Part shown: piece after piece, positions 14,301 to 26,494 of the stretch
Layout: the number at the start of each line of letters is the position of its first letter
How positions within the stretch are numbered: position 1 is the stretch's first letter
IMG/VR virus record: IMGVR_UViG_3300018018_000003
Coordinates: 1,959 to 65,958 of that record
Origin: a virus
Taxonomy: Duplodnaviria > Caudoviricetes
DNA: 64,000 bases
Reading direction: 5' to 3' (one strand)
Notes under the pieces: model-generated
Database searches by the model: none
What the model was told of the DNA's origin: nothing
What the model saw: the letters and a program-made list of their open reading frames with translations, nothing else
Translations under genes and position numbers: made by a program

Positions 14301-14987
14301 AGATTCTGCAACTGCCCTTGAGTATTTCTTTAAGGTAGTATCGCCCGTTATCGCTGCTTGTGCCTTGACTCCCAATTCAAGGCTCTCAACCTTTAATTCT
14401 TTCGGATAATCAACTGCCAGATAGCCTATGTCCCTTACAAGGTTTGCAACACCCTTATAAACGCCTTTTGAGACGGCTCCTATATAAGATTCTTCCGGTT
14501 GTGGATGAGTGACTGGTATCTTATCTTCCTGCGGTATATTTATACCCGTAGTGGATACGGGCATATCCTCTCCCTTATATTGTTTGTTTTCAATATCCTT
14601 TAATGACGGCTCTCCCTTGGGTGCCATACCCTCGGGTAAATCAAGCCCTAATGTCTTTGCGTTATTGTCTTTATGAGGATTCCGACCTATCTGATCTTCC
14701 GGAATAGTGCCACTAACTTTTGATAAAACCTTTGAAAAGGCTTCTGATGTAGGCAAGCCATAATCGGTAGCATCTTTTTTTTTTAATCCGAGAGTATGGG
14801 AGAAGCTCTCATAGGTATCGGGAGTATCAAATTTATTCGCCTTGAGATAGTCGTAATACTTATGAGCATTCCCCTCATCAGATAATGTCTTTTGAAACGA
14901 TTCAAAGTTATCCGGCACATCAGCCTTTGCTGACTTCAGATAGTCGTAATACTTCTGAAGATTAGTATTGTCGCTTGTTACTGCCAT
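8400..14987 (-). CDS. large internal virion/ejection protein (2195 aa, polyvalent type)
   Basis: last gene of the tail module; Gly/Ala-rich hydrophobic segment, K/E/P-rich linkers, internal HExxE domain, helical C-terminal region. Confidence 0.7.
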   Translation of the reverse strand: MAVTSDNTNLQKYYDYLKSAKADVPDNFESFQKTLSDEGNAHKYYDYLKANKFDTPDTYESFSHTLGLKKKDATDYGLPTSEAFSKVLSKVSGTIPEDQIGRNPHKDNNAKTLGLDLPEGMAPKGEPSLKDIENKQYKGEDMPVSTTGINIPQEDKIPVTHPQPEESYIGAVSKGVYKGVANLVRDIGYLAVDYPKELKVESLELGVKAQAAITGDTTLKKYSRAVAESIDNGLYGGNTASLMKEGYERTADFLDKTLAEKTGETPHDEFGKSLEATGEFLPDLFSMSLFPEAKAPLLVKYGLENMLKFPAYLGLKSYAEGMKEGKPVKEIVGQSGAQVEQGLLFNSLGILSGEAGQLAKDMGAGVWTTHGVKLLANSLGFGGLEKAQGGSFAQGMMQGFTFGMLDTPEAVKDVLTKRAMLSYMTATDNNIRLVNSMNIDPVKAREESMKLFMDIQNEKDPDKKSQLIAQKNVVDNAININFVTQSVLRNPDAFLKSINDSPVLSAREKKIWTDKFRTTIKENDPRRKEAAPVVENIDRMQNELNDAKNDESLNPTEKEAKVAGLENKINEEKKNAEKIFSKSVDDYNELKPENKERDLNKIAEDAEKEAQKAKEAKEAEEKAKAEKEKAETPPKEEWEDWDKKTFQENLIKASTGKNKRLSDQVANAAEAHPEWGKFKADVSKIEPKTTKEPKAKTEIPKTEQSPEEIAKKNNIEYVGKQEGNEPDGSDALDMYNVKVDGKDASFAVKAGSDENAVIEARDKMVDSFKTKPQEKEKPKEEVSGAAEKPSARLWDKGDKDTPESVKIRFGIADQEFTSEDIDNIPDTPLWNQNGRNVIGVDDSYMKTHFYSNWTEGGNSAVYPEWNPHGDIHVANNVDDEYKKFVAAHEIWEEYKVEKKGLLYSSAQGSAHEQSNKMEIPLRRFYDEQLKPNGGDVLSIDVTDEGFHFTYKETADGPEKEATMFPDGTMRDGKHGNSLGEEEPPKTEEKPKTEKDETEIPKPTDTEGKKPEDNIPAGTPKGEGGAETEGAEKPPKKPKYTKEQQKKVAVIYEYYNNQIKGRQEELDKIPDQKKKAKLEADSRNQIFGDPNAKPSDLIKPGEQGFKVTPETIDAVGKKFDERAAQLTKEIADLTKERDSKIGEVKKQQNLFPEEKPAEKPIADQGVEFNGKYYTDIDDVQQDFIDKKLTPDEHKQLLEKVRNWEDDLRRKADTNARNVSKKFNSNADESDKNLKDEDDKLQMRILPPDVISKGNTVLWKHLFAPLRDKVSDAIANRLQAGLESQNNAIRNLAKFAEMAYRGLARTQKDTFGTDESGKKVQVGELEMRGTSGIFARNESQWLMNNLRDIVGGSEESLENVFDVLDPELSTKPKKYGDLSNSEKNLYWAVRDWNTWVHETTFANGFIDAKTYMKFKDPNTGEVQYLGREYDTHLQEDEDRLTAEMRALTQTGDNGIITGIYKARQEVNEAMQEHAIKDPAYLTALRVRQTIQNDARIKYMNSIVDNHPNFVRTLKPGEDVPKGFDLLGNFRKWGPFRNKAVLHSIVEDFTGFHFANTAANTWYDAFKVYNRQKFNQFYRAWRTSLNPFVQTGNYTGSHFFGAINGFNPLEILVEKENWKKEAKNRTALYKAVEKSGVLLESGVTGEKIPDFAKKTSMYQTLTGDQTLIDKARTLFNRGQKLAGQNYIDVENNVKGAAYLICRKQGLTHDQAVRRVYDSFRNYAHIGKLWDVASKTPLIGPTFVKFQADMQRIMLNGITMNPLTTIGNLALISAIGATFSYMSGETPEQKKEREHRKGTPQISLPFGLSIPLSFKVGKSEVNAARYLSPMYNYVGEDNSATLSDLSKFLPFQFQKKDKSKLFPTAVFGDATWGFVGSAVLADRDFRNQSISNPTSNKWRDPNPSTWSRIINVLHYAARSQVPFFRSGEDIYDAMTGKLDYYGRKRTIIQSLLNNVIKVQQFNDPELKAHMERQLEYTVGEYADLAKSMGDAEGDYNRTVQRAIENGATGDALTRIEKAADRVRASEINHSLKEMIPVNQEIDSLTMMYSKWNPDDPFIKENGTKMREGMTRRFNVLNGVEFQKKYPEEYMLLKNNQVLKAPKVPDYYLQKPLTAEDKERYANIYWTNYLNMLKGFVPGGLTKEAFEKAKKQTWQRGMTLTDEEPKETNLLKEMARQAEEQATNIASATFRNKKAESENP

Positions 14988-16306
14988 TTTATTCCGCTTT
15001 TAACTGTTTTTGTTTCTTTCCCCATAATAGTTTCCAATGTCGTCTGCTTGCCATCATCACCTATTATCGGGACATTTTCAATACCCTTGTCAGCAAGTTT
15101 GTCTTGCGGGATAATAAATGTTTCTTTGTCCATAATTTCTGATCCCAATGCTGGACTCTTTGCCCTAAATACAAATGCCTTCTCATTTGGGAGATAATTA
15201 ATGAGTTCACAAGGAGTGTTATTGCCATTATAGACATCCCTCTCTTGATCTCCTATTACACCCTTGGTTATCCCCATATCTTGAAGATTGACATTAATGG
15301 TTGATTTAGGATTGAAGTCATAATGCTCATTATAAGTCTTGCCTCCATAAACAATGGGTTTATCTGATTTCTGGCCGGGAGCATCGAGTTTTAAATTACT
15401 TCCCCCCACGTTTATTGATATTCCTCCCTTGCTTGACGGCTTCTGAATGTATTCCTGTTTGTATTTTGGATTATATAAAGAATAAAGGTATTCATCATCA
15501 GTCATCTTAATTCCATCAGTATCCGGCTGGTCATCGGGATCACTTTGCCTTATTACCTTTATACCTTCTTTCTGCGCAGGAGTCATCGTCCTATATATAT
15601 TCCTGAACTCCTTTTTATTCTTTTCCACTATATCGGGAGTCACTTCCCCTGATGTCATTGTATATTCTTTATCTCCCGTTTTTGGATTAATCGTTTCTAC
15701 TTGCTTTCTTGGAGGCGGTGTAATCCTATCTTTATTCTGCTCAATAATCTTATTATAATCTGCAGGAATTGGATTATATACTATCGCATTCTGTAATAGA
15801 TTTTTCCTATCCTCAATGCTATGACCCTCGAGAGCCTCTGCAAGTTTCTTCTGTGTCTCATCCCAATTCACTTTCCTTTCACTTGGCGGTAACGCATCTT
15901 CCTGTTCGTGTAATTGCTGAATCTTGTCATATACTCCTTTTTGTACTTCCCATTGATCAGCCAGATTTTTTGTCTGAGCATGGTAGTCATTGAGGTATTT
16001 GAATAGTGTCACTTCGGCATCGTTCTTTGGATTGCTCAGGTTCATTCCTTTCTTCATAGCCTCCATAGCAACTTTATAGGCGGTGTTATTCCTTTCCTGA
16101 AGCTCCTGAAACCCTTTCTGATCCTCCCATCCCTTTAAATTGGTTACGAGGTTAGACAGGTATTCTTTATTACCCGCCTCTTTTTGTTCATAGAGAGCCT
16201 TCTGGACAGCGAACTGTTTATCTTTGAGTCCCTGAACAAACTCTACAGGATTGAACTCGTCTTTTAAGACGGGCGCTCCCTGAAATAATCCTGATTGTGC
16301 TGCCAT
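14978..16306 (-). CDS. putative internal virion/ejection protein
   Basis: helical, charged 442 aa protein between the pilot-like gene and the large ejection gene. Confidence 0.6.
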   Translation of the reverse strand: MAAQSGLFQGAPVLKDEFNPVEFVQGLKDKQFAVQKALYEQKEAGNKEYLSNLVTNLKGWEDQKGFQELQERNNTAYKVAMEAMKKGMNLSNPKNDAEVTLFKYLNDYHAQTKNLADQWEVQKGVYDKIQQLHEQEDALPPSERKVNWDETQKKLAEALEGHSIEDRKNLLQNAIVYNPIPADYNKIIEQNKDRITPPPRKQVETINPKTGDKEYTMTSGEVTPDIVEKNKKEFRNIYRTMTPAQKEGIKVIRQSDPDDQPDTDGIKMTDDEYLYSLYNPKYKQEYIQKPSSKGGISINVGGSNLKLDAPGQKSDKPIVYGGKTYNEHYDFNPKSTINVNLQDMGITKGVIGDQERDVYNGNNTPCELINYLPNEKAFVFRAKSPALGSEIMDKETFIIPQDKLADKGIENVPIIGDDGKQTTLETIMGKETKTVKSGIKWQ

Positions 16307-16310
16307 GATA

Positions 16311-17051
16311 TTATTTATTTATGCCACCTTCGTATGATTGAAAACTATATCCTGTTGGTGAAGATATTCCACTCCCACTTCCAATTCCAATCCCGTTTCC
16401 GCCTCCCTGCCCTGACTTGCCCATTAATGTTTGGAGCCATCCCATCACATCATTCATGGTGAAATTCCCCTTGCCTCCTCCATATACTCCTCCTTTGGCA
16501 AGTGCCGAGTAAAAATCGGGAGCTGCGGCTGCTGCCCCTGCCCCTGATACTCCACTGAACATATTCTGCTGTCCCGATGCGCTTAACTTTTGTGCCTGAT
16601 CCCTTGCCATGAGATACATATTCTTCTGCCAGTCCTGTTGCCTGTCCTGCGCCTGACCAAGCGTATTCTCTGCGCTGAAGTACCTGTTTGCCCCTTCCGC
16701 ATTATAACTTAAATCGTTTTGTGCGAGTTTGGCTTGTTCCTGCTGTCCTGATGCAATAGCCCTGCTTATTACTCCAAGCCCTTCCGAACCAGAACTCATC
16801 TGTGATGCAGCCTGTAACCCCGCTGCCGTTGCTCCTCCTATCTGATTACGTGAGATTTGGCTTCCAGGTGCCTGTGGTGCGTTCATCTGACCCTGTGCCG
16901 TAGCTGCTGCCGTCTGATATGCGGGAGAGATGGCATTGGATGGTTGCGGTGTATTCCGGGCAATCTCATTACCTTGTCCTATCATACCTGCTCCCATAAT
17001 AGTCTTGGCTAAAGAGGGGATTAGTGTTAATATTAATGCTAATGGATTCAT
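16311..17051 (-). CDS. pilot-like ejection protein
   Basis: hydrophobic N-terminus, Ala/Gln/Gly-rich; follows the tail stabilisation gene as in podoviruses. Confidence 0.65.
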   Translation of the reverse strand: MNPLALILTLIPSLAKTIMGAGMIGQGNEIARNTPQPSNAISPAYQTAAATAQGQMNAPQAPGSQISRNQIGGATAAGLQAASQMSSGSEGLGVISRAIASGQQEQAKLAQNDLSYNAEGANRYFSAENTLGQAQDRQQDWQKNMYLMARDQAQKLSASGQQNMFSGVSGAGAAAAAPDFYSALAKGGVYGGGKGNFTMNDVMGWLQTLMGKSGQGGGNGIGIGSGSGISSPTGYSFQSYEGGINK

Positions 17052-17062
17052 GGCTTTATATT

Positions 17063-20038
17063 TTAAACATTTCTTTCTGATGGTGTTGAAAAGATGACTA
17101 CCGAATCAATCCTTACCTTATCCGTATGTTCCTCGGTATGGAACTTGAGATAACAATACCTTCCTCTCATGTCCCTACCGTTTAACTTGGCATCAAAGAC
17201 ACTTGAGAAGACTCCCGGGGTGTTAATGTCTTTCATTATCTGTCCGAAATAAACTCCCTCCCTCTGCTCAAAGACAGGTATATTTGTCTGCATGAGCTGA
17301 TGGCTCTCTGCCACCTGTTGAGGTATATAGACATATTCATCAAGGCTCTCCAATAGATGATCCGTAAATAATCCTACTGCGTTAAATACCTTATTCTTCT
17401 GCGGTTCTATATTAGATACCACTTCCAGTTCGGCATCTGTCGGTATGCCTGACCATGATAAGTAATCCTGTCCTTCGTCACTATTCATAACCCATAATGT
17501 CTGATGATATAAATGTGCGAAGAAATTTCCTAAATGAACATAGCTTTCCGTTATTTGATCTATCTCGGAGACAAACCTGCCCGTGGCTTCGCTGAATATT
17601 ATCCCCTTGACATTCCCATTCATATTGAATGTGATCCATACCTCTTCATGCTCATTGTTTATCCCTATGCGCACCTGAAGAATGCTTGCCCCTCCCGATG
17701 ATCTTATCCATATAAGGAGGTCTTTGAACCACCTCGACATCCTGTATTCCGGTCCTGATAATACTTTCTGACCATTGGGATCTGACCGTATAAGCATTCC
17801 TTCATTGCAGTCATAGTAATATAAGTTGCGGTTATTGGCTACTATGCTATCGGGATGCTGACAGCCATAGTTATCATCCATGGGACGCATCACCCCTAAA
17901 AACGCATCTGTAAGCGTAAATTGAGACGTTCCATCGGGATTAAAGGTCTGTACCCTGTTTACATAGATGCTCGTCTCCTTGTGCTCCTGAATGACTTTTA
18001 AGACATATCCTACCTCTCTCAATCCTGTTATTATCCCGTCTTTTTCCGGAAGGTCACGGAAATCCACATCAACAAAATGGGCAATATTATTAGTTGTGGT
18101 GCCGGTTAATAGGAATCCTCCGTTACGAATCCTCTCATCCAACTGAACCTGTTTTAATGTGAGGTCATATATGAAGGGGAACCCGCATGATGTCAGTTTG
18201 TTGTCAATGACCTGACCTACCCACCAGTCACTCGGGAATATGCTTTCTGCCCAGAATGGCTGAACACTGCCCGTATTAACACCTCCTGCAAAACTATAGT
18301 TAAGACGTGAGAACTTCCAGCAGTCATTGGCAGTATTATAGACTTGTGCGGGCGTTACTAATACCCCCGCAGCATTGAATACCTGATTTACATTTCCTGT
18401 ATGATATAAGTTGCCATTACTGTCTGTGGCTATATCAAATACCATACCGCAACCATAAGCTATCACCTGTCCTAATCCTTTCTTTGGACGATAGAGTTCT
18501 ACGATTACGTTCATGGGTGAAGGGAAATCCACTCCCGCTACATGTGCAGTAAAGATAATCGAATTGCCCGAATAAGTAAGGTCGATGCCAAGTGCTGATA
18601 ATGCCGATATGTTCCCGGCAGTGGTGGCGAAGTTCTTTGCTGTCTGCGCCAATCCTGATGCATCCCATGTAACCGTTGCCTCATACGTCCCACAGCATAT
18701 CGTTGCCGTTCCAGTTGTTCCTGTAAGTGTTAGCGTATCAACCCTTGCAGTAGGGGTGGCAGGATCATTGGGTGTTGTATGAACTACCGTTCCTGATAAG
18801 TCACCCGTAAGATTAGTTATTGCCGTTGTCCCGAGGTCGAGATCGTGCGGATGGCTCTTTGCCTGAAAGATAAGATAATCACCGGTTGTGACACTGCCGT
18901 CTTCCGTGCTTGTACCCTCCACTTCATAATCATAAAGGATGGAATATTTCGTAATTACACCTGTACCTGCATTTATCGTGCCAATAAGCCTTATCCTGTC
19001 CCCTAACTGCCATACATAAGCACCTGTCTGCCATCTGTTATTTTGAAGATACGTCCATGCAAAAGTATCATTGACATCAAGAGAATACCTATCCACACCA
19101 TAATTAAGATGCCACACTCCGCTCTCCCTTATCTGCATGAAATAATCCATTGAGTTATTGCCAAAATAGACTATCTCGTATGTCTTTGCCCATGAAGGAG
19201 GCTGATGGCTTATACTGAATGTGAGATTGACAATAGAACTGAGAAGGATGCTTGCTCCATTAGGCTCAGTATAAAATGGTATATAGACCGCATCAAAAGG
19301 CATCACTGAACACTGTCTCCCTGACCGATCTTTATATACTATCCCGAAGCTATGCGATGATCCGCATTTAAGGTCGGGATATTTATTTGCAAAGCCATAG
19401 CGTAAATAATAGGCACTGTAAGTAAATCCCGAATAGACCGTATTGACATCTCCTGCCACCCATTTCGGTTCACATCCGTATTGTGCGTTTTCCGGGTACA
19501 TCAAAATCTGATTTGGCACTGCCGTTGTTTGTAAGACAAAGCCATTTGTTGTCATACTGGCTATGAGTCCATTCTTTAAATCCAACCCCACATCCCCCGC
19601 CTTGACTTCATACGATGCTGTCCTGCTTGTGATTCCTTTGGATGGACATGCTATCGTCACATAATACCAATCATTTGCTATGGGATAATCAGGCAGTGTA
19701 AGTATTAAGAGTCCATAGACGGTTCTCTCTGTCGTATTTGATGATGGATTTGACCAATAATCAGTATGATCCATGAAAGGTATTATGGGAAGATTAGTCT
19801 GTCCCCCTGCCGCAGATACATCCTGATATGTTATTGCAGATGTTATATTGGGCTGTATGACATCCTCTCCTTCAGTTATCTGTCCAAACACAAGGGCATT
19901 GCCTCCCACTACCTCCATACGACCTGCCTTAATAGGTATATAGGTAAAGGGTTCAGCCATGATGTTCACATCCATGACTGCCGATACCTTGTCGTTATAG
20001 AAGGTACGAATAATGTCCGTGTTGTTTGGATATATCAT
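17063..20038 (-). CDS. tail stabilisation (nozzle/muzzle) protein, C-terminal piece
   Basis: TFYND...P..A...E..GN.LVFG...EG, LK.G..H.FGIVY.D..GR, YGCQHP.S, KVFNA, REG.YF, NG..MRG.Y as recalled from crAss-like tail stabilisation proteins. Confidence 0.75.
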   Translation of the reverse strand: MIYPNNTDIIRTFYNDKVSAVMDVNIMAEPFTYIPIKAGRMEVVGGNALVFGQITEGEDVIQPNITSAITYQDVSAAGGQTNLPIIPFMDHTDYWSNPSSNTTERTVYGLLILTLPDYPIANDWYYVTIACPSKGITSRTASYEVKAGDVGLDLKNGLIASMTTNGFVLQTTAVPNQILMYPENAQYGCEPKWVAGDVNTVYSGFTYSAYYLRYGFANKYPDLKCGSSHSFGIVYKDRSGRQCSVMPFDAVYIPFYTEPNGASILLSSIVNLTFSISHQPPSWAKTYEIVYFGNNSMDYFMQIRESGVWHLNYGVDRYSLDVNDTFAWTYLQNNRWQTGAYVWQLGDRIRLIGTINAGTGVITKYSILYDYEVEGTSTEDGSVTTGDYLIFQAKSHPHDLDLGTTAITNLTGDLSGTVVHTTPNDPATPTARVDTLTLTGTTGTATICCGTYEATVTWDASGLAQTAKNFATTAGNISALSALGIDLTYSGNSIIFTAHVAGVDFPSPMNVIVELYRPKKGLGQVIAYGCGMVFDIATDSNGNLYHTGNVNQVFNAAGVLVTPAQVYNTANDCWKFSRLNYSFAGGVNTGSVQPFWAESIFPSDWWVGQVIDNKLTSCGFPFIYDLTLKQVQLDERIRNGGFLLTGTTTNNIAHFVDVDFRDLPEKDGIITGLREVGYVLKVIQEHKETSIYVNRVQTFNPDGTSQFTLTDAFLGVMRPMDDNYGCQHPDSIVANNRNLYYYDCNEGMLIRSDPNGQKVLSGPEYRMSRWFKDLLIWIRSSGGASILQVRIGINNEHEEVWITFNMNGNVKGIIFSEATGRFVSEIDQITESYVHLGNFFAHLYHQTLWVMNSDEGQDYLSWSGIPTDAELEVVSNIEPQKNKVFNAVGLFTDHLLESLDEYVYIPQQVAESHQLMQTNIPVFEQREGVYFGQIMKDINTPGVFSSVFDAKLNGRDMRGRYCYLKFHTEEHTDKVRIDSVVIFSTPSERNV

Positions 20039-20039
20039 A

Positions 20040-20477
20040 TTAAGTTAAATAGATTATCCCAAGGGCATTCCACTGAATGAGGCTTGTGCCGTTATTCACT
20101 ACCTGGTCTGTAAGGAAGTCAATGATTGCCCGTAGCTTATATGTTGACTGTCCTGTGCCTCCTGTAGTCGTATAAAAAGCCCCATAGCGATAGTCAATGC
20201 TCGAATTGGGGCCTATCGAGACATCTTGCGCATCGAGAAAATAGTTATTGCCATCGGCATTGGATGACAGACCGTTCATCAATATCCCTCCTGCCTTATA
20301 AGCGCCCGGAGTACCGCTATCGGTGATCTCATAAGCCACCACATCCGAGACATAATGTTGTGTTGCCGGATTAGGGGTGAATGAGTTATTAAGGAGCATG
20401 AGATACCATACTTCACCCGTCCACCCATCGGTGATCTCTTTCTTTACGTATTTCGGAATACAACTTAGATTTGCCAT
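20040..20477 (-). CDS. small virion/tail-associated protein inserted between tail stabilisation pieces
   Basis: MLL...FTP.....Y.SDV...EI.....Y.AGG..., IDF..DQ...NG...IQWNA.GI, a widespread phage structural family. Confidence 0.6.
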   Translation of the reverse strand: MANLSCIPKYVKKEITDGWTGEVWYLMLLNNSFTPNPATQHYVSDVVAYEITDSGTPGAYKAGGILMNGLSSNADGNNYFLDAQDVSIGPNSSIDYRYGAFYTTTGGTGQSTYKLRAIIDFLTDQVVNNGTSLIQWNALGIIYLT

Positions 20478-20488
20478 AATATTATTTT

Positions 20489-22228
20489 TTAAACTAAAGG
20501 TCCTACATAAACTATGATATAATCTCCGGAGGCAACTTGCCGTGACATCGTTACCGTCCTGCTATTTGAATACTGATTTAATAAGTCTGAAAGCGTTCCC
20601 GTCCCTGATGCTACTCCATTGGCATATATATAATAGGGCGTGCTGAATACTACCTTTGGACCGTAAAGAACATCATCAGGAGTGAATGTAACCGTTATGC
20701 TCGCTGATCCCATCGTGGCTACTCCCGAAGTATTGGAAACGGAAATCAAGTCAGGACTTCCTGCCTCTATGACAAGGGTGGGTGGTATGACCGGTGCTAA
20801 CTGAGATACTGCTATATAAATGGTATCCCCCAACGAATCCTTCAAGACAACCGTCCCGCTTCTTAAAACCCCTGTATTTGCCGATGCGGGAGTAATCATA
20901 AGCGTCTGTGCGTTGTATATCGTATCCCCTGCCTTCATTGATCCATGGTAAGGCACATTGGATATTGTTATCCATGATGGGAATGACACAAGCGTTCCCT
21001 CTGTCGTGCCTCCTACTATCGTCAATACCGTCTCTGTCCCGCTATAAGAACTATCCGGCCACTGCATAGAATTGACACTTGCAGATATATAGGCATTTGT
21101 CACTCCTATTGATGGGAAGCTGAATGCGAATCCCGTATCTCCCGGGTTGACTATTGTGCCATTCTCCATATCCGGCTGTGGGAATGAGAAGCTGATTGTC
21201 AATACCGGAGCTATGATATTCTGAGATATGGCACCAGCATTCTCCTGTTCGCTGAACTTATCAATGGTGTCAATAAGAAACCATTTGGAGGGATCGCTAC
21301 TGCTCCGTACCACCACCTCTATCTGCCTCACCTCCTCGCCTCCTGTATTAAGCGTTATCTCCAAGGCATTATTAAGCGATGTCATCTCATTGGCAAGCCC
21401 TGTAGCCACCTCTTCCTCGCCATTAGGCATGGCAAGTATGCTCGCAGGAGAGAACGTGCTTCTTCTCCAATCCATATAGACATACCTGTAGGCTATCTGA
21501 AAGAGCGTCTGCCTGAGGTTATTCACCTGTCGGTTGTTATCTGAGAAATACTGCACTACCGGAGGATGCTTGGGAGGCATGGCTTCAAAGTAGAAATTCT
21601 CAATATTCATCGAATAATAAGCGTCTTCTATCATGCAGAGTGGCGGTATGCCCCAATGCGTCCCGTCATCCGTCCGTGGTTCATATCCTACATTATTATA
21701 AACAAGGCTCTTATAGAAGTAATTGCCATTGGACACAATCTGTCCAAGGCTATAACTACTTGTCGCATTCCATTCCGTAGTATTCGGGAAAGCGCCATAG
21801 CCTATCTTATATGTAAACGAGTTCTTTGCCCTCTTAATATCCATCTGGTATATGGGGTTCACATTATCCGTCCATACAAGCCTCCCAAATACCACCTTCG
21901 GATTGTAAATCTTATGATTCGGGTCAAAGCCTATGTTATTATACTTGTCGTAATAGACTACCGACTGCACCCTGTTATCAACATTTATCTCAATGATCCA
22001 GGCAGAGCCGAAATAAGTATCAATATAAAAGACATATATGCACCGTGTAAGGGGATCAACACAGTTACCGCACAGAAGGACATTGGTTATATAAGATGGC
22101 TGTAATGGGTTGACGGTACCAATATCTTTAAGAAGCCGTACAGACAGACAGTCATTCTTTGGGGCAAAATCTATCGTTGCCTGTGCGGTGTTATATCCAA
22201 GAGATAATATCTTAGCTGAATTGCTCAT
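20489..22228 (-). CDS. tail stabilisation protein, middle piece (Fib_succ C-terminal strands, CBM-like insert, Ig-like tail)
   Basis: G...D.....IY.F, L.WTDN.NP, NNLR..LFQ.AYRYVY.D...STFSP.S, NTG.EEV..IE; N-terminal SVRLLKD; C-terminal BACON/Ig-like segment. Confidence 0.7.
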   Translation of the reverse strand: MSNSAKILSLGYNTAQATIDFAPKNDCLSVRLLKDIGTVNPLQPSYITNVLLCGNCVDPLTRCIYVFYIDTYFGSAWIIEINVDNRVQSVVYYDKYNNIGFDPNHKIYNPKVVFGRLVWTDNVNPIYQMDIKRAKNSFTYKIGYGAFPNTTEWNATSSYSLGQIVSNGNYFYKSLVYNNVGYEPRTDDGTHWGIPPLCMIEDAYYSMNIENFYFEAMPPKHPPVVQYFSDNNRQVNNLRQTLFQIAYRYVYMDWRRSTFSPASILAMPNGEEEVATGLANEMTSLNNALEITLNTGGEEVRQIEVVVRSSSDPSKWFLIDTIDKFSEQENAGAISQNIIAPVLTISFSFPQPDMENGTIVNPGDTGFAFSFPSIGVTNAYISASVNSMQWPDSSYSGTETVLTIVGGTTEGTLVSFPSWITISNVPYHGSMKAGDTIYNAQTLMITPASANTGVLRSGTVVLKDSLGDTIYIAVSQLAPVIPPTLVIEAGSPDLISVSNTSGVATMGSASITVTFTPDDVLYGPKVVFSTPYYIYANGVASGTGTLSDLLNQYSNSRTVTMSRQVASGDYIIVYVGPLV

Positions 22229-23316
22229 ATTATCAAATTAACACAAATCCGTGCCGCACTTGATGTCTCCCCTGCTTGCCCTATTATCGCTGTCGTATTT
22301 GCCGATCCGGTACCTACGGCTGTCCCTGTTGTTCCTATTGCGACATTTGTTATATTGCTCCATGCAGATGATACTGACTGGTCTGATGGTGCGCATTCAA
22401 GATACTGGTTGCCATTTTTATAGAATATATATCCTCCTGCTGGTCCAACATCCTGTAAGTCATAACTGAATATTGAGGTGAATGAATGTATTGCCCTTAC
22501 ATAAAACTGATAACTCTTGGTCTGTACACTCTGGGCTCCCGAACCGAAATTCTGATACCATGCTGAGATGGCTACAGATTCCGAAGAAGTCCAATATGTG
22601 TTTTGTGAAAAGTTTCCAAGCCCATTCAGATAAAGGACGGAATACATAAGAGCTAATTCATCTTTTGATGGCAGGTACCAATTATTAAAAGTGTTTTCAT
22701 CTTTTAGCCAAAATAATCCATTTGCTCCAAGTAGTTCATATATTGTATCATATATCCCTCCCGGCAATGCCCTGAAGCCATAGTTGTCATCGGCTCCTGT
22801 ATTAGGATCATTCCAGTGGTCATCGCCTACCTCTTTCAGATGTCCTCCGGCTATCATCTGTCCTCCAAGGAATGTCAATAGAATGTTAATCTCCGCCTCT
22901 GTAGGCACATGCCATCCCTCCGGACAGAAATCCACTGACATGATCTGATTCCATGAGTAAAGACCTCCGTATATAGCCCTGTTGTCTTCATCGTCATTAT
23001 AGACTCTGCTCCCGGGATAAGCGTTATCCCAGTTCCTCTTCATCCACGTCTGAGATCCAATCGTCACTTCTTCCCAGCCCTCGTATAGGAATGCGCCACC
23101 GATAGCTGCACCGTAATATGTTATCTCTGCGCTTACATTTAACAAAACAGGGACTTCTCCCTGTAGCGTCTCAAGAACCCCTGCCCCATGTTGTTCACTG
23201 CTACTTGCGGTGCGCACATTTTTGGCAAAGGTAAACTCCCCCTCCTGAAGGAACTGAGGGTCTTGATCACTGTTTAGACCTAAAAATAATTTCTTTATAT
23301 CTCTAAGAGTTGCCAT
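22225..23316 (-). CDS. tail stabilisation protein, N-terminal piece fused to Fib_succ_major and DUF1566-like modules
   Basis: GLNSD.DP..L.EGE...A.NVR N-terminus; VTIGSQTWM..N, YGGLYSW, CPEGWHVPT, GF.ALPGG; WYLPSKDEL, YWTSSE, VRAI.SF, GPAGG.IFY. Confidence 0.75.
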   Translation of the reverse strand: MATLRDIKKLFLGLNSDQDPQFLQEGEFTFAKNVRTASSSEQHGAGVLETLQGEVPVLLNVSAEITYYGAAIGGAFLYEGWEEVTIGSQTWMKRNWDNAYPGSRVYNDDEDNRAIYGGLYSWNQIMSVDFCPEGWHVPTEAEINILLTFLGGQMIAGGHLKEVGDDHWNDPNTGADDNYGFRALPGGIYDTIYELLGANGLFWLKDENTFNNWYLPSKDELALMYSVLYLNGLGNFSQNTYWTSSESVAISAWYQNFGSGAQSVQTKSYQFYVRAIHSFTSIFSYDLQDVGPAGGYIFYKNGNQYLECAPSDQSVSSAWSNITNVAIGTTGTAVGTGSANTTAIIGQAGETSSAARICVNLII

Positions 23317-23319
23317 ATA

Positions 23320-24126
23320 TTAACGTTTTGGCGACTGTCTGTAACTGCCCCAAAGAGCTCTTTTCAGTTCATCGGCTGTGAAACTGTTCTGAAATGCCCT
23401 TAGTTCTGCCACTGCCTCTTCGTGATCTTTCTTCCGTCTCTCAATCTCCGAATAAGCCATCTTAACCGCAGTCCTGCCGGTAAGGAACCCAAGCATATCA
23501 CCCGAGATCATCTGCCACTCCACATACGTCCTGAGTGCAGGAACGGCTTCCCTTGGCACTAATGAACTACCATCAAGTTTTACGCCTGAACTCAGATACT
23601 CTAAAACTATACCTGTTCGCGGTATATGACCCGAGAACACTATCTGTCTCCTCTCCCTGTCTATGCGGTAATATGAACTATCAATACCTCCTGGTAAGCC
23701 AAATAATCCGCCCACGTACTGCCCATTTCTAAAGTGTGAACTGAAAAATATGGCATCCGGAATACCATGAAAATGGTCATTGTCCGCATTGCCCACTTCA
23801 AGTCCGGTGTCATCGTACGTCCGAGGTAGCAATAGATTATCATGCCTTGTTATCACCCGTAGCTTGCCGTTAATCGGAATGCCAATGCGGACATAATCTA
23901 TAAAATCTGCAGGCAGAGGAACTGTTTTGGCAAGTGACATGTGCAAATATACGACCTGTAATCCCGCATCCATGTTATACATATTTAATTCAGTAAACCC
24001 CTCTAACGCTATCTGTGTCAATCGTTTATAATCTTTCATCGAGTAATTAGATAACCTATTTAATATGGACATAATTACGTAACGAATTGTCACAAATCCT
24101 TCGGTGTTGGGTAATGCATTTGACAT
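23320..24126 (-). CDS. tail tubular/ring protein
   Basis: LP.DFIDYVRIG, Y.ID.E...I.FS, IVLEY.S.G, A..ALR.Y..W; directly upstream of the tail stabilisation gene. Confidence 0.7.
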   Translation of the reverse strand: MSNALPNTEGFVTIRYVIMSILNRLSNYSMKDYKRLTQIALEGFTELNMYNMDAGLQVVYLHMSLAKTVPLPADFIDYVRIGIPINGKLRVITRHDNLLLPRTYDDTGLEVGNADNDHFHGIPDAIFFSSHFRNGQYVGGLFGLPGGIDSSYYRIDRERRQIVFSGHIPRTGIVLEYLSSGVKLDGSSLVPREAVPALRTYVEWQMISGDMLGFLTGRTAVKMAYSEIERRKKDHEEAVAELRAFQNSFTADELKRALWGSYRQSPKR

Positions 24127-24947
24127 TATGCTATTTTTTTAATTTGATTATTTATTTCTTTTTTTCTCATAATGCTCTGTTTCTGAGCAATACTTAATTT
24201 TCTTTTATGTTCATCAGAAAACGGCTTCCCTTTATGCACAAGGCTTAATTTCTTTTTTGTTTCAGAATTTGCCCTTTTTCCAAGATGTGATAATCTGTTT
24301 TTCAATTTTGATTCCGCAGAGTGTTTTCTGCCATACATGGGATTATTTGCGCCAGTAATGTCTCTTTTTATATGTTCTTTTATTATTTTTTCTTTTGGAA
24401 ATGGATGTTCTCGGGCATATCTTAATCTCTTTGTTAAACTAATTTTCAATTTAGTTTCTTCTGAATGTCTATGGCCTAATAGATATTTATTCCCCTTAGA
24501 CGCAAGGCCTATTTTACGTTTATGCTCTTCAGAAAATATTCGTCCTTTTAAGGAATCAGAAATGTTTTTTCTGGCTTCTGCGGATCTTGGCGATTGTTTT
24601 TTACCTTTAAGTGCTTGGCTGATTTTTATTTTAGTTTCCTCTGAAAGTTTACTGCCCAAGGTATTGCCTGCAATTTTACAGGTATTAAAATAAGGATTTA
24701 ATCTATCAAGATAATATTGTTCCCTAGCGAGTAATCCAACTGGAAAGCATGGCTCGATAATAGAAAAAATCAAGTCATTTCTTCCGTATTTATTATAATG
24801 TCTTTGAAGTTTTTTAGAACAATGAACTCCCTTTTTTAAATTACAAAAATGCGTAGCCTTTCTTGTTTTTAAATCAATAGCACTCCCAATATAAATCCGT
24901 TCAGGATGCATAATGCTTTGAATTTTATATATACCCGATCTTTTCAT
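24126..24947 (-). CDS. free-standing GIY-YIG homing endonuclease with NUMOD3 repeats
   Basis: SGIYKI...RIYIGSA, REQYY.D...P.FN, repeated HSEE.K.KIS motifs, G.NNPMYG.KHS; AT-rich; start moved to MKRSGIY. Confidence 0.9.
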   Translation of the reverse strand: MKRSGIYKIQSIMHPERIYIGSAIDLKTRKATHFCNLKKGVHCSKKLQRHYNKYGRNDLIFSIIEPCFPVGLLAREQYYLDRLNPYFNTCKIAGNTLGSKLSEETKIKISQALKGKKQSPRSAEARKNISDSLKGRIFSEEHKRKIGLASKGNKYLLGHRHSEETKLKISLTKRLRYAREHPFPKEKIIKEHIKRDITGANNPMYGRKHSAESKLKNRLSHLGKRANSETKKKLSLVHKGKPFSDEHKRKLSIAQKQSIMRKKEINNQIKKIA

Positions 24948-24948
24948 T

Positions 24949-25602
24949 TTACGTTGTGGGTTCTGAATCAATAGTCGGATCAGGCTTTGGCTTATGCATC
25001 ATAATGTCAATCACTCTCTGGACGATATTATCTTCCATTCCAGACGGCATAGCCACCTCATCGTAGTCTCCCATCTGTTCCATGGGTACAATCATAAGTA
25101 CGTCCACAGACGTTATTTCATCCGGAGCCACTGGTAGCTTGTCAAATTTGAGTATATGGCTCGGCTCGCCATCCCCTGTGAATAGATTACTCTGTTCAAG
25201 CCTGTAAGTAGGAGTATCATCCATAGTATCCACTTCGAGCTCTGCAAACACCACATTGGCTCCTGACTCTATCGGTGCAAAGACATTGGTGTTATCCGCA
25301 TTATTACACACCTGTCTTATACCATTGTCATCGGGTAATTGTACCGGAGTAAAAGGCAGGAATGCATAAGCCGATGTCCCTGACTGATTAAGAACATCAA
25401 TGGTATATGTTCGGCTCCATGCATCAAGCTGGCTGAAGTCACTCTCCCTCTTCCCCCTCTCCCATGTCTCATAGATTATCTGGCGGAATACGTTTCGCAG
25501 ATGACCAATGATGACCCCGGGATGATAAACGGCCTTCTGATCCCCTACAATGTCATTTGCAAAGAAGTCCTGAACCAGGTCTACTATCTCTATCACCTTC
25601 AT
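24949..25602 (-). CDS. putative head-tail ring/adaptor protein
   Basis: position in the tail module; LP..PVQLP...GI..V. Confidence 0.55.
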   Translation of the reverse strand: MKVIEIVDLVQDFFANDIVGDQKAVYHPGVIIGHLRNVFRQIIYETWERGKRESDFSQLDAWSRTYTIDVLNQSGTSAYAFLPFTPVQLPDDNGIRQVCNNADNTNVFAPIESGANVVFAELEVDTMDDTPTYRLEQSNLFTGDGEPSHILKFDKLPVAPDEITSVDVLMIVPMEQMGDYDEVAMPSGMEDNIVQRVIDIMMHKPKPDPTIDSEPTT

Positions 25603-25625
25603 AATCAGATGGTTAAATAATTATT

Positions 25626-25769
25626 TTATCTCTTTCTTTTATGTACTCTCTCGGGTAACTTTTTCCCTTTGCTTGCCCGGTCAAATTCCCTGACCGTCTT
25701 ATGTGAAATCCTGCCTTGACTTTCAAGGACATGAAATTTTTTTCTCTGAGCTTCTGATTTATATGGCAT
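25626..25769 (-). CDS. small basic phage protein (47 aa), not in the ORF track
   Basis: hand-translated MPYKSEAQRKKFHVLESQGRISHKTVREFDRASKGKKLPERVHKRKR; matches the recurrent MP.KS.AQR...LPE.V phage family. Confidence 0.7.
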   Translation of the reverse strand: MPYKSEAQRKKFHVLESQGRISHKTVREFDRASKGKKLPERVHKRKR

Positions 25770-25771
25770 TT

Positions 25772-26494
25772 TTAGCCCTCCTTTAATTTAGTTTCTGCAT
25801 ACTGAACTATTTCCTGTTCTCTCAAGTTGACCCCACAGTAACTCAGCAACATCCGGACTAATACTATGTGTTCATCAGCCGGAGCTTCGCATTCTACTGA
25901 GTTCACGGCATCGTAAGTGATATAACCATCGCCTACGATATATTTGAATACAGGGTCTTTGGGATACCTGAAGTAAGCCATATCCACCTGTGTTATGGGA
26001 TACGGCACTACATCAGATACCGTATTTGGAAAGATATAGATCCCATCTGACCGAAGAACGGCAACTGGCATTCTTGTCACGGGACGCTTGGTGTAGTTCC
26101 CCTGCCTGCTTGCCAACTGCGACTCTGTGAGTACCTCCAATCCCTTAGGTAATACTGTGGGTATCTTATTTATGTTTATGGTGAAGTTATTTATTATCTC
26201 TCCGCGATGACAGTAGTCTGTAGGATAGGGTATCTTTCCATTGACTACCGGCACATTTGTCAGATAGACCTTGAATGCCTTGAGGTCATCCATGTTCTTC
26301 AGGGTTATCTCTGCATACTCTTTGGGTATGGGTCTCCCGGGTTGGTATTCCTCGGGAAGCCCATATTTATTCCTGAACCAGTCAAGATGCACCACCTTGA
26401 TAAGCGATGCAAACCTGTCGGGTGTTATGACATTTCCGGAAAAATCCTTGTTTGTTACGTAGTTTACAAGGTCCCACATTTCCCAAAGGCTCAC
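25772..26494 (-). CDS. head-tail connector/ring protein
   Basis: V....NK..SG..ITP..F, P.DY, Y.RYP.DP...Y, L.Y.GVNLRE.E.VQYA typical of crAss-like ring proteins. Confidence 0.7.
   Translation of the reverse strand: MSLWEMWDLVNYVTNKDFSGNVITPDRFASLIKVVHLDWFRNKYGLPEEYQPGRPIPKEYAEITLKNMDDLKAFKVYLTNVPVVNGKIPYPTDYCHRGEIINNFTININKIPTVLPKGLEVLTESQLASRQGNYTKRPVTRMPVAVLRSDGIYIFPNTVSDVVPYPITQVDMAYFRYPKDPVFKYIVGDGYITYDAVNSVECEAPADEHIVLVRMLLSYCGVNLREQEIVQYAETKLKEG

What the first reader, a model, noticed from the sequence alone, without database searches (positions are those of the whole stretch)
17063..23316. Tail stabilisation gene split into three ORFs and filled with nested adhesin-type modules
Seen: motifs I recall as one continuous crAss-like tail stabilisation polypeptide are spread over three ORFs in the correct order. 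These are GLNSD.DP..GE..A.NVR (from 23316), the G..D..IY.F / WTDN / FQ.AYRY block ending KWFLIDTIDK (about 22080-21255), and TFYND onward (from 20038). Between them lie a Fib_succ_major domain, a DUF1566-like lectin module inserted inside that domain, a CBM-like insert, Ig-like domains, a whole separate gene and a Thr/Gly-rich module. Both breaks have a tightly coupled restart in the same TAATATGA context. Inference: the nozzle is built from complementing fragments and acts as a scaffold that accumulates receptor-binding modules. No reverse transcriptase or invertase is visible, so this would be a diversification route distinct from DGRs and shufflons.
Basis: partly seen in the sequence, partly recalled or inferred. 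Interest (0 to 1): 0.85.

Follow-up and report, generated by a model that had tools for sequence, protein, structure and literature searches.

The report
Three-gene split crAss-like phage muzzle
In this peat/wetland crAss-like phage the tail-tip "muzzle" protein, normally one long chain, is encoded as three separate genes whose ends carry swappable sugar-binding modules, an arrangement fixed across a whole clade of relatives.

Summary
ORFs A (23316-22225), B (22228-20489) and D (20038-17063), all on the minus strand, tile single-chain homologues in order. Intact P0081 (1195 aa) matches A 13-55, B 106-327 and D 13-990 collinearly. Its AF2 model (pLDDT 88) superposes on the phicrAss001 muzzle gp44 (Z 30.8). 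In 138 of 149 wider relatives the B-core and D parts sit on one chain.

The split is neither an artefact nor recent. All 13 related IMG/VR contigs that cover the region have ring-A-B-C-D. The split forms make one clade (SH-aLRT 100) among intact forms. Four metagenome runs give identical contigs. I found no intron, useful read-through, RT or recombinase.

Break 1 lies inside an inserted Fib_succ_major lectin domain. B's first ~45 residues are predicted to complete A's truncated domain (ipSAE 0.90, best control 0.00). Break 2 lies between the IG1-like domain and the next propeller blade. Behind each break relatives carry different modules: FN3, LRR, a second lectin, BACON, and a pectate-lyase-like gene.

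The "complementing fragments plus module scaffold" reading is supported. An active diversification mechanism and a special TAATATGA signal are not. This is a new variant of a known kind; a split nozzle was described in podophage A1002 in 2026.

The parts
23320..24126 (-). Ring (tail barrel) protein gene directly upstream. Context: it occupies the position of gp43 in phicrAss001.
   Evidence: phrog_13977 virion structural protein, E 6.4e-11. It precedes A in all 13 related contigs that cover the region. gp43-gp44 order in NC_049977.
22225..23316 (-). Gene A (363 aa): muzzle fragment 1. It holds the N-terminal ring-joining-type segment, a truncated lectin domain and variable C-terminal modules.
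   Evidence: The core aa 1-207 is conserved in 10 of 10 aligned A proteins; the rest is variable.
23119..23316 (-). A aa 1-66: homologue of the N-terminus (ring-joining region) of intact muzzle proteins.
   Evidence: BLASTP to P0081 12-54 and P0082 5-54. A local HMM of this part hits the N-terminus of 64 of 149 relatives, 62 of them on chains that also carry the IG1-like part and D. P0081 residues 1-1190 align to gp44 2-1371.
22687..23067 (-). A aa 84-210: Fib_succ_major lectin domain lacking its last ~30 model positions.
   Evidence: PF09603, 74.2 bits, model 1-158 of 187. Present in 10 of 10 A proteins.
22228..22689 (-). A aa 210-363: variable appendage. In this phage it is an Lcl_C/DUF1566 module (aa 210-276) plus a PAGG-containing C-terminal module.
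   Evidence: PF07603, 36.0 bits. Lcl_C is present in only 3 of 10 relatives; the others carry FN3, LRR or a second Fib_succ_major here.
20489..22228 (-). Gene B (579 aa): muzzle fragment 2. Its ATG overlaps A's TGA (ATGA).
   Evidence: The core aa 1-~345 is conserved in 10 of 10 B proteins.
22094..22228 (-). B aa 1-45: predicted missing end of A's lectin domain. This would be the joint between A and B.
   Evidence: In the co-fold the confident interface is B 1-45 against A 72-209; ipSAE 0.90 in 3 runs, best of 3 controls 0.00. The motif S[VI]R[LF][IL][KRS] sits at aa 29-35 in 10 of 10 B proteins and resembles the SVRCMRD end of complete copies. No HMM support.
21809..22084 (-). B aa 49-140: propeller blades 1-2 (motifs IYVFYID, WTDN).
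   Evidence: Collinear with P0081 ~62-150, which the model shows as two four-stranded blades. The local HMM hits 61 of 149 relatives, 59 of them on chains that also carry the IG1-like part and D.
21209..21808 (-). B aa 141-340: IG1-like domain with a CBM5/12-like stretch, ending KWFLIDTIDKF.
   Evidence: phrog_14478 positions 164-281. P0081 123-342 at E 3e-47. On one chain with D in 138 of 149 relatives. The domain name is inferred from its position relative to gp44 (PMC10172136, section 9).
20489..21208 (-). B aa 341-579: variable C-terminal beta-rich modules (BACON-like by motif) plus the stop codon.
   Evidence: No Pfam hit in the window. Relatives carry FN3 arrays, BACON or Ig-like modules here. 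Aa 417-578 are homologous (E 3e-5) to the C-terminus of a separate pectate-lyase-like gene in L014.
20040..20477 (-). Gene C (145 aa): a small conserved protein between B and D, probably a tail-associated adaptor or fibre protein. It is not a piece of the muzzle chain.
   Evidence: phrog_644. Present in 13 of 13 contigs that cover the region and in cut contig L010; absent from L019, whose B+D are fused, and it has no counterpart within the P0081 chain. AF2 pLDDT 75.6. Best folds are phage tail parts: 9f4a_AY Z 9.6, Bxb1 tail tip Z 8.0, GP4 fibre I/adaptor 8jou_a Z 6.9. ESM Atlas lead PF23140 Gp80 at 0.88.
17063..20038 (-). Gene D (991 aa): muzzle fragment 3. It holds the rest of the propeller, the IG2/crass-type bulk and the MUZ_C end. 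It starts 1 nt after C's TAA.
   Evidence: phrog_14478 positions 966-1147. PF25729 crAss_MUZ_C at aa 862-937, 20.4 bits, below the 27-bit cut-off. hhalign places D 656-894 on gp44 1051-1281, E 1.2e-3, probability 19%. P0081 358-1194.
18569..18847 (-). D aa ~398-490: variable Thr/Gly-rich insert.
   Evidence: The D alignment breaks here in 10 of the 14 related contigs that show D; it is continuous in 4 (L001/L004, L010, L012 over the full length, L004 as far as held). Aa 403-459 are 51% identical to an insert in the ring protein of L012.

Best explanation
What it is: a fixed gene fission of the crassvirus muzzle protein, formerly called 'tail stabilisation protein', Tstab. This is the T7 gp12 / P22 gp10 nozzle homologue that closes the tail tip. 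The phage is a 66-kb environmental crAss-like phage.

The three polypeptides:
- A: ring-joining N-terminus plus most of an inserted Fib_succ_major lectin domain.
- B: the last strands of that lectin domain, then propeller blades 1-2, then an IG1-like domain.
- D: the remaining blades, the IG2/crass-type bulk and the C-terminal domain.

How it most likely works:
- The genes are co-transcribed and translationally coupled.
- The products reassemble non-covalently into one muzzle protomer. A and B are joined by strand complementation inside the split lectin domain. B and D are joined by closing the seven-bladed propeller.
- By analogy with gp44, six such protomers would form the tail tip.
- The fissions created two free C-termini, on A and on B, at surface-exposed inter-domain sites. 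Different lineages have hung different glycan-binding or enzymatic modules on them, which probably serve host-surface adhesion.
- Gene C, always lodged in the second break, is probably a small tail adaptor or fibre protein.

Shown: the tiling, conservation of the layout, its single origin, the identity of the fold in the intact homologue, and the variation in modules.

Predicted only: the A-B joint.

Inferred: B-D complementation, stoichiometry, the adhesin role and the role of C.
For: Tiling:
- P0081 and P0082 are collinear with A, B and D. L019 has a natural B+D fusion. phrog_14478 is hit by B and D in order.
- 138 of 149 relatives carry the IG1-like part and D on one chain.

Fold:
- The P0081 model has pLDDT 88.3 and pTM 0.80.
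- Foldseek places it on 7qol_P and 7qok_A at E 4e-33 and 1e-32.
- VIA gives Z 30.8, rmsd 5.8, 869 residues aligned, model 1-1190 to chain 2-1371. The next matches are podophage nozzles Pa223, SU10, VP1, P22 gp10 and T7 gp12.
- Both breaks map to loops of the model, ~57-64 and 339-353.

Conservation:
- ring-A-B-C-D in 13 of 13 related contigs that cover the region. One further contig is cut and shows C-D.
- At least 79 D-sized clusters occur in JGI, ENA, Logan and NCBI data.
- The split clade is monophyletic (SH-aLRT 100) and sister to intact forms.

Real DNA: 4 of 4 runs each have one contig over the 2701 bases with 0 differences and 0 gaps.

A-B joint:
- ipSAE 0.90, 0.90, 0.90 against a best control of 0.00. 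The mark was reached by 58 of 80 solved complexes and 2 of 110 mismatched pairs. Runs agree in at least 69% of contacts. Partner pLDDT is 76-77.
- The interface is B 1-45 against A 72-209.
- pLDDT of A is 69-72 with B and 33-34 with unrelated partners.

Modules. A complete Fib_succ_major domain is inserted in-frame elsewhere in another muzzle, P0185.
Against: - No window ORF reaches Pfam's crAss_MUZ model. D's crAss_MUZ_C hit is below the cut-off.
- Direct comparison with gp44 is weak: phmmer against PDB finds nothing, and hhalign probability is 19%. The link to gp44 therefore runs through the intact homologue's predicted fold.
- The window's own B and D were not folded or co-folded, so closure of the propeller from two chains is inferred.
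- In the co-fold, A's residues 1-66 have no confident contact with B, so the placement of the ring-joining segment is untested.
- The A-B pass may reflect the model's memory of single-chain lectin domains. It used my own 10-row alignments, so the calibration counts hold only roughly.
- HMM searches do not recognise B's N-terminus as Fib_succ_major.
- No protein-level or RNA evidence exists.
- The tree is a quick search with a midpoint root.
Confidence: 0.75

Rival explanations
1. Subfunctionalisation. D alone forms the tail-tip gate. A and B are no longer parts of the same protomer but independent fibre- or adhesin-like proteins that keep relic muzzle segments only as anchors.
For: The A N-terminus is not placed confidently against B. 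The B-D contact was not tested. A and B carry typical receptor-binding modules. In L014 the module part is a gene of its own.
Against: The relic parts are the best conserved parts of A and B: aa 1-207 and 1-345 across 10 of 10 proteins, including the blade motifs. The family's fold is a closed seven-bladed propeller whose blades 1-2 exist only in B. A-B binding is predicted with ipSAE 0.90 against 0.00 for the best control.
Confidence: 0.15
2. The pieces are rejoined into one chain by RNA splicing, an intein, programmed frameshifting or bypassing, or stop-codon recoding.
For: crAss-like phages are known to carry group I introns, inteins and alternative codes (PMC7886860, passages read; PMC12386605, passages read). 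A GIY-YIG homing endonuclease gene lies 0.8 kb upstream.
Against: The Rfam E-value scan of 16000-26000 finds no intron; the only hit is a weak opuB match at E 0.033. A, B, C and D are in different frames. Reading A's TGA as Trp adds only 15 codons before a stop. Junction spacing and overlap differ among relatives. The intervening sequence encodes folded, recognisable domains and a conserved gene C. Each piece has its own ATG.
Confidence: 0.03
3. An active, ongoing diversification system: cassettes are exchanged at the two breaks within populations, as a functional alternative to DGRs or shufflons.
For: Module content differs behind both breaks. One module is shared between D and another phage's ring protein. 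L008 repeats the YYGAAIG / LLWLADE junction motifs after its first module.
Against: Contigs from 4 runs (2017, 2017, 2018, 2020) are identical over both breaks. There are no RVT_1, resolvase or tyrosine-recombinase matches in the complete 65,958-bp genome. The region holds only short imperfect repeats. Differences are seen only between lineages that are 47-65% identical in D.
Confidence: 0.05
4. An assembly or sequencing artefact, or a decaying pseudogene.
For: The genome is known from metagenome assemblies only.
Against: The same layout is found in 13 of 13 related contigs that cover the region, with different junction sequences. Identical contigs come from 4 runs at depth 15-168. All pieces are long, open and conserved.
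Confidence: 0.01

Closest known systems
phicrAss001 muzzle protein gp44 (PDB 7QOK/7QOL; Pfam crAss_MUZ PF25731 and crAss_MUZ_C PF25729; the 'Tstab, P22 gp10-like' of Yutin et al. 2021)
   Same: Same genomic position after the ring protein. The intact homologue of the window's pieces has the same predicted fold (Z 30.8). The domain order matches: ring-joining, blades 1-2, IG1, then the remainder (PMC10172136, section 9, read). Length variation through insertions is already noted in that paper.
   Different: gp44 is one 1371-aa chain. Here there are three genes plus an intercalated gene C. A lectin domain is inserted after the ring-joining segment and is itself split. Extra modules sit on free C-termini rather than as internal loops. 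Sequence similarity to gp44 is near the detection limit.
Split nozzle of Pseudomonas podophage A1002 (gp39 nozzle-rope plus gp42 nozzle-base; PMC13730344, passages read)
   Same: A nozzle-family tail-tip protein partitioned into separate polypeptides that rebuild the platform and propeller by strand complementation. One partner carries an Ig-like domain and docks fibres.
   Different: A1002 has two pieces, not three, and its split runs through blades 1-2 and the platform. It has no split lectin domain. It is a different phage group, and homology of the split was not tested. A1002 is shown by cryo-EM; the present case is only inferred or predicted.
T7 gp12 / P22 gp10 / Sf6, SU10, Pa223 and VP1 nozzle proteins
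   Same: Shared ring-joining (platform) domain plus beta-propeller core. Z is 18-23 to the P0081 model.
   Different: These are single chains of 440-1000 aa without the crass-type bulk and without lectin, FN3 or LRR appendages.
Modular receptor-binding proteins of phages, and DGR-targeted C-type-lectin tail fibres of crAss-like phages (PMC12386605, passages read)
   Same: Lectin-fold, Ig-like and FN3 modules are used at the virion's host-contact end and differ between relatives.
   Different: There is no RT or DGR here. The modules sit on the essential muzzle itself rather than on separate fibres. Variation is by module replacement between lineages, not by hypermutation.

Membership tests
Crassvirus muzzle protein (gp44 / Tstab; PF25731 + PF25729) | Sequence match to the Pfam crAss_MUZ and crAss_MUZ_C models above their curated cut-offs | tested here: not met
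   None of A, B or D hits PF25731 at E <= 0.01. D hits PF25729 at 20.4 bits, below the 27-bit cut-off. Wider relatives retrieved with P0081 do pass: P0116 and P0181 reach both models, and P0082 reaches PF25731. The window's clade is a divergent branch (phrog_14478; gp44 itself is phrog_28748).
Crassvirus muzzle protein (gp44 / Tstab; PF25731 + PF25729) | Fold: ring-joining domain, seven-bladed propeller with IG insertions, and large distal domain | tested here: met
   Tested on the intact homologue P0081, not on the window's own chains. Foldseek E 4e-33 to 7qol_P. VIA Z 30.8, rmsd 5.8, 869 aligned, spanning model 1-1190 and chain 2-1371. A, B and D map collinearly onto P0081.
Crassvirus muzzle protein (gp44 / Tstab; PF25731 + PF25729) | Conserved position in the structural block directly after the ring (Ttub) gene | tested here: met
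   phrog_13977 ring-like gene lies immediately upstream. gp43-gp44 order in NC_049977. The order is kept in 13 of 13 related contigs that cover the region. The 2195-aa ORF downstream had no PHROG hit, so that part of the synteny is unverified.
Crassvirus muzzle protein (gp44 / Tstab; PF25731 + PF25729) | One polypeptide per protomer | tested here: not met
   There are three ORFs in three frames plus gene C. No intron or useful read-through was found.
Split (heteromeric) nozzle, A1002 type | Separate polypeptides complement each other to rebuild the nozzle fold | tested here: inconclusive
   The A-B joint is predicted (ipSAE 0.90, best control 0.00), but through the inserted lectin domain, not through the nozzle core.
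Split (heteromeric) nozzle, A1002 type | Common descent of the split with A1002 gp39/gp42 | not tested
   No A1002 sequence was compared. The break points described in PMC13730344 differ from those found here.
Fib_succ_major (PF09603) lectin-type domain | Match above the curated cut-off | tested here: met
   A aa 84-210, 74.2 bits against 33.9. Present in 10 of 10 A proteins.
Fib_succ_major (PF09603) lectin-type domain | Complete domain on one chain | tested here: not met
   Only model positions 1-158 of 187 lie in A. The rest is predicted to be B aa 1-45. This is not recognisable by HMM.
Lcl_C / DUF1566 (PF07603) | Match above the curated cut-off | tested here: met
   A aa 210-276, 36.0 bits against 34.9, model 42-116 of 117. 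This is marginal and partial.
Diversity-generating retroelement | Reverse transcriptase and a TR/VR repeat pair | tested here: not met
   0 RVT_1 matches in the complete genome; the control search found matches in 3 of 14 genomes. No long repeats in 16800-24200.
Shufflon / invertase switch | Site-specific recombinase and inverted repeats flanking segments | tested here: not met
   0 Resolvase and 0 Phage_integrase matches. Only 18-24-nt imperfect inverted repeats.
Group I/II intron-split phage gene | Intron RNA structure between exons | tested here: not met
   The Rfam E-value scan of 10 kb gives no intron family at E <= 1.

The most novel reading that the evidence does not exclude
Gene fission is used as an adaptation to make an essential, tightly packed tail-tip protein modular. 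Foreign cassettes landed in two exposed loops, one of them a loop of a previously inserted lectin domain. The broken domain now works as a non-covalent snap joint. The muzzle protomer would be an A-B-D heterotrimer, perhaps with C. A hexameric tip would then display twelve exchangeable adhesin or enzyme arms directly on the DNA-ejection gate, so that receptor binding could act on gate opening without separate fibres. If other lineages have independent splits, muzzle fission would be recurrent in crAss-like phages. Hints of this are L019's separate first break and the ~10 relatives that begin at the IG1-like domain.
Probability: 0.35. Interest if true: 0.75.

Novelty: new variant of a known kind. 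Interest (0 to 1): 0.58.

Why it matters
The muzzle is the hallmark tail-tip gatekeeper of crassviruses and has been described as a single highly conserved chain. This work finds a whole environmental clade in which it is built from three genes: at least 79 D-sized protein clusters and contigs of 61-78 kb. That matters in three ways.

1. Annotation and phylogenomic marker sets that rely on 'Tstab/muzzle' will mis-call these phages or truncate the gene.

2. A seven-bladed propeller and a lectin domain can apparently both tolerate fission, which makes a natural system for studying fragment complementation during virion assembly.

3. It points to where host-recognition modules sit in uncultured peat and wetland crAss-like phages, directly on the ejection gate. 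This gives testable targets for host-range prediction.

It also gives the recently described split nozzle of podophage A1002 a second, independent and more extreme example.

Tried and rejected
- Direct sequence links to solved structures failed. phmmer of B and D against PDB gave 0 hits at E <= 1. A hit only an HbP1 lectin-type chain through its DUF1566 part.
- tblastn of B and D against 50,697 phage records gave no match at 1e-5.
- The search for related loci with P0081 and with P0145 found no relatives in IMG/VR. I therefore could not see the genomic context of the intact form, or of the ~10 relatives that begin at the IG1-like domain. Whether those are further split types or truncated gene calls stays open.
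- B's N-terminal 50 aa from 10 of 10 B proteins gave 0 Pfam hits at E <= 10.
- A local HMM built from 3 complete Fib_succ_major copies did not hit B's N-terminus. The split-lectin idea rests on the co-fold and a short motif.
- I looked for an intact intermediate with a lectin domain inserted at the same site. In the 7 long-N-terminus relatives I scanned, none had it. P0185 has a complete copy at another site.
- Gene C: Foldseek against PDB gave nothing at E <= 0.001; the best hit was Bxb1 tail tip at E 0.027. C's role remains a lead.
- The look-up of sequencing runs listed no RNA holder, so nothing can be said about expression.
- The promoter and terminator scan of 16800-24200 found 18 and 3 sites, against 19.8 and 4.4 expected. 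It is uninformative.
- Only the quick tree was obtained; the careful search did not finish within 300 s.
- Literature searches for a split crassvirus muzzle found none in the held library. Only the A1002 split nozzle appeared.
B-D and the full A-B-D set exceed the 1000-residue limit and were not run.

Full report
**Setting.** The window is nearly all of a 65,958-bp virus record with direct terminal repeats, rated 100% complete. It carries crAss-type portal, TerL and capsid genes. The same 2.7 kb around the finding occurs, with all sampled words, in 20 peat or wetland metagenome runs from 2017-2020. Genes in the region are all on the minus strand and tightly packed. The order is: ring-protein-like gene (23320-24126, phrog_13977), A (23316-22225, 363 aa), B (22228-20489, 579 aa), C (20477-20040, 145 aa), D (20038-17063, 991 aa), then 246-aa, 442-aa and 2195-aa ORFs.

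- PHROG family 14478, a 1474-position 'virion structural protein', is hit by B at positions 164-281 and by D at positions 966-1147.
- A search with D returned 82 proteins. Eighty of them were D-sized (568-1066 aa). Two were long: P0081 (1195 aa) and P0082 (1618 aa, carrying Pfam crAss_MUZ and crAss_MUZ_C).
- BLASTP shows that P0081 contains all three pieces in order on one chain: A 13-55 at 12-54, B 106-327 at 123-342, D 13-422 at 358-746 and D 490-990 at 705-1194. P0082 is collinear too.
- A more distant IMG/VR contig (L019) encodes a natural B+D fusion of 1186 aa with no gene C. There the sequence runs straight from the '...WFIIEE' block into the '...NFTNN...' continuation.
- A whole-library phmmer search with P0081 found 3003 relatives at E <= 1e-3. 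Most of the best 150 are 1150-1300 aa.
- Local HMMs made from the window clade's pieces find the IG1-like part of B and D on one chain, in order, in 138 of 149 of these proteins. The A N-terminal segment is detectable at the N-terminus of 62 of those 138. Nine are D-only, and several of these are short fragments.

**What the intact protein is.** AlphaFold2 of P0081 with a 50-row alignment gave pLDDT 88.3 and pTM 0.80.
- Foldseek's best matches are the phicrAss001 tail muzzle chains 7qol_P and 7qok_A, at E 4e-33 and 1e-32.
- VIA-align gives Z 30.8, rmsd 5.8 A and 869 aligned residues, spanning model 1-1190 and chain 2-1371. Podophage nozzles follow at Z 18-23: Pa223, SU10, VP1, P22 gp10 and T7 gp12.
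- The older name 'tail stabilisation protein (P22 gp10-like)' refers to this gene (PMC7886860, passage read).
- Bayfield et al. describe gp44 as a ring-joining domain, a seven-bladed propeller, IG1 between blades 2 and 3, and IG2 plus the crass domain inserted in blade 3 (PMC10172136, section 9).
- On the P0081 model, break 1 (A|B) falls in the loop at ~57-64, between the N-terminal segment and the first four-stranded blade. Break 2 (B|D) falls in the loop at 339-353, after the IG1-like domain. The domain names for the window's pieces are inferred from this mapping.
- Direct comparison of the window's pieces with gp44 is weak. phmmer gives nothing. hhalign places D 656-894 on gp44 1051-1281 at E 1.2e-3 with probability 19%. 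D's crAss_MUZ_C hit is below the cut-off.

**Not an artefact, and not rejoined.**
- Fifteen distinct related IMG/VR contigs were recovered. Thirteen cover the region, and all 13 have ring-A-B-C-D. One is cut and shows C-D. L019 has the two-piece form.
- Junction spacing differs among relatives: 1-nt overlaps, 8-nt overlaps and 2-9-nt gaps. This fits ordinary translational coupling rather than a conserved recoding signal.
- The four ORFs are in different frames. Reading A's TGA as Trp adds only 15 codons.
- Rfam finds no intron in 16000-26000.
- Contigs from 4 of 4 runs laid on 19800-22500 are identical: 0 differences and 0 gaps, at depth 15-168. One of these runs may be the source of the record.
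- TAATATGA is present at both junctions but is not enriched: 7 found against 5.6 expected.

**Polarity.** A quick maximum-likelihood tree of 38 D-homologous rows has SH-aLRT support only, a midpoint root, and an unfinished careful search. It puts all 13 three-piece forms in one clade (support 100). This clade is sister to a clade of intact proteins that includes P0081. The more distant rows, all but one, are full-length single chains; the exception, P0099 (1163 aa), lacks the start. L019's separate first break is nested among the intact P0087 and P0088, so it is an independent event. Fission is therefore derived, and it happened once for this clade.

**Break 1 lies inside a lectin domain.**
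- All 10 aligned A proteins share aa 1-207: the N-terminal segment, then a Fib_succ_major domain that stops at model position ~158 of 187 at the motif LFWLxDE.
- All 10 B proteins begin with ~45 conserved residues that have no counterpart in P0081. These contain S[VI]R[LF][IL][KRS] at aa 29-35, which resembles the SVRCMRD end of complete Fib_succ_major copies in relatives.
HMMs do not detect it.
- The co-fold of A 1-210 with B 1-345 scored ipSAE 0.90 in each of three runs, against 0.00 for the best of three controls. The mark was reached by 58 of 80 solved complexes and 2 of 110 mismatched pairs. Runs agree in at least 69% of contacts. Partner pLDDT is 76-77.
- The confident interface is exactly B 1-45 against A 72-209.
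- A's own pLDDT is 69-72 with B but 33-34 with unrelated partners.
- Caveats: I supplied my own 10-row alignments, and the model may be recalling single-chain lectin folds. The result supports binding but does not show it. A's residues 1-66 made no confident contact with B.

**Modules behind the breaks.**
- After LFWLxDE, this window's A carries Lcl_C/DUF1566 plus a PAGG module. Lcl_C occurs in 3 of 10 relatives. Others have FN3 (3 of 10), LRR (2 of 10), a second complete Fib_succ_major, or BNR-like repeats seen by eye.
- After KWFLIDTIDKF, B carries BACON-like beta modules here, with no Pfam hit in the window. Relatives carry FN3 arrays (3 of 10), Ig_Rha78A_N or BACON.
- In L014-L016, B stops at 394 aa and a separate 929-aa gene follows. 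It has a Pel9A-like beta-helix (E 2.2e-17), and its C-terminus is homologous to the window's B aa 417-578 (E 3e-5).
- D has a variable insert at aa ~398-490. The D alignment breaks there in 10 of the 14 related contigs that show D. Part of the insert is 51% identical to an insert in L012's ring protein.
- Another muzzle relative, P0185, holds a complete Fib_succ_major inserted in-frame at a different site.
- The muzzle is thus a recurrent host for lectin-type modules. The two fission sites are the most permissive places in this clade.

**Gene C.** It is conserved at 45-64% identity in 11 sequences. It is absent from the fused L019 form and has no counterpart within the P0081 chain. Its model (pLDDT 75.6) resembles small phage tail parts: 9f4a_AY at Z 9.6, Bxb1 tail tip at Z 8.0 and the GP4 fibre I/adaptor chain 8jou_a at Z 6.9. 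This agrees with a weak ESM Atlas lead to PF23140 Gp80 at 0.88. These values are near the noise level quoted by the tool, so 'tail adaptor or fibre protein' is only a lead.

**No programmed diversification machinery.** The complete genome has 0 matches to RVT_1, Resolvase or Phage_integrase. The region has only short imperfect repeats.

**Comparison with the literature.** Five full-text searches found no report of a split crassvirus muzzle. Passages were read in PMC10172136, PMC10136315, PMC7886860, PMC11054128 and PMC12386605; supplements were not available. A structural precedent exists in Pseudomonas podophage A1002, where gp39 and gp42 together rebuild the nozzle platform and propeller (PMC13730344, passages read).

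**Verdict.** The fragment-complementation and scaffold reading is largely supported. The 'new diversification route' and the junction-motif claims are not. This is a new variant of a known kind, of moderate to good interest. The A-B lectin joint and B-D propeller closure are concrete predictions that can be tested.

Noticed in passing
window 24126-24971 (-); L005/L006/L011 3775-4587: A GIY-YIG + NUMOD3 homing endonuclease gene sits just upstream of the ring gene. In three related contigs its homologue (43-48% identity) sits between the ring gene and A instead. It is therefore mobile within this structural block.
   Followed up: partly
L012 3250-4329: This relative's ring protein is 359 aa instead of ~260. 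It carries an insert 51% identical to the window's D insert aa 403-459. The same small module has been placed into two different virion proteins.
   Followed up: partly
L007 2491-4134: This relative has two tandem ring-protein paralogues, of 278 and 261 aa, against one in the window. That could mean a different tail-barrel length.
   Followed up: no
L014/L015/L016 5762-8551: A separate 929-aa gene with a Pel9A-like right-handed beta-helix (a possible depolymerase) lies between a shortened B and C. It ends in the same module pair as the window's B.
   Followed up: partly
L019 1-705: The A-like ORF of this distant relative includes the first blade strands. It then has a long TTTAAP-type Thr/Ala/Pro linker and an extra domain, and ends with TAA in the same frame as the following B+D gene. 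This is an independent first break at a slightly different site.
   Followed up: partly
L008 A protein (L008:5089-6888), alignment A3 columns ~600-690: The junction motifs YYGAAIG and LLWLADE are repeated after the first module, before a second Fib_succ_major copy. This may be a footprint of recombination at conserved linker sequences.
   Followed up: no
window 8400-14987 (-): A 2195-aa ORF sits where phicrAss001 has the 2341-aa virion RNA-polymerase subunit gp47, but it has no PHROG hit at 1e-5.
   Followed up: no
window 17957-18121 (-): A weak Rfam opuB motif hit (28.4 bits against a gathering score of 75, E 0.033) lies inside gene D. It is most likely chance.
   Followed up: no
proteins P0133, P0145, P0146, P0187, P0206, P0210, P0212, P0223, P0185, P0111; P0193: About ten muzzle relatives of ~950-1240 aa begin at the IG1-like domain. 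One 360-aa protein (P0193) ends right after it. These may be further, independent fission types or truncated gene calls. Their context could not be fetched.
   Followed up: partly
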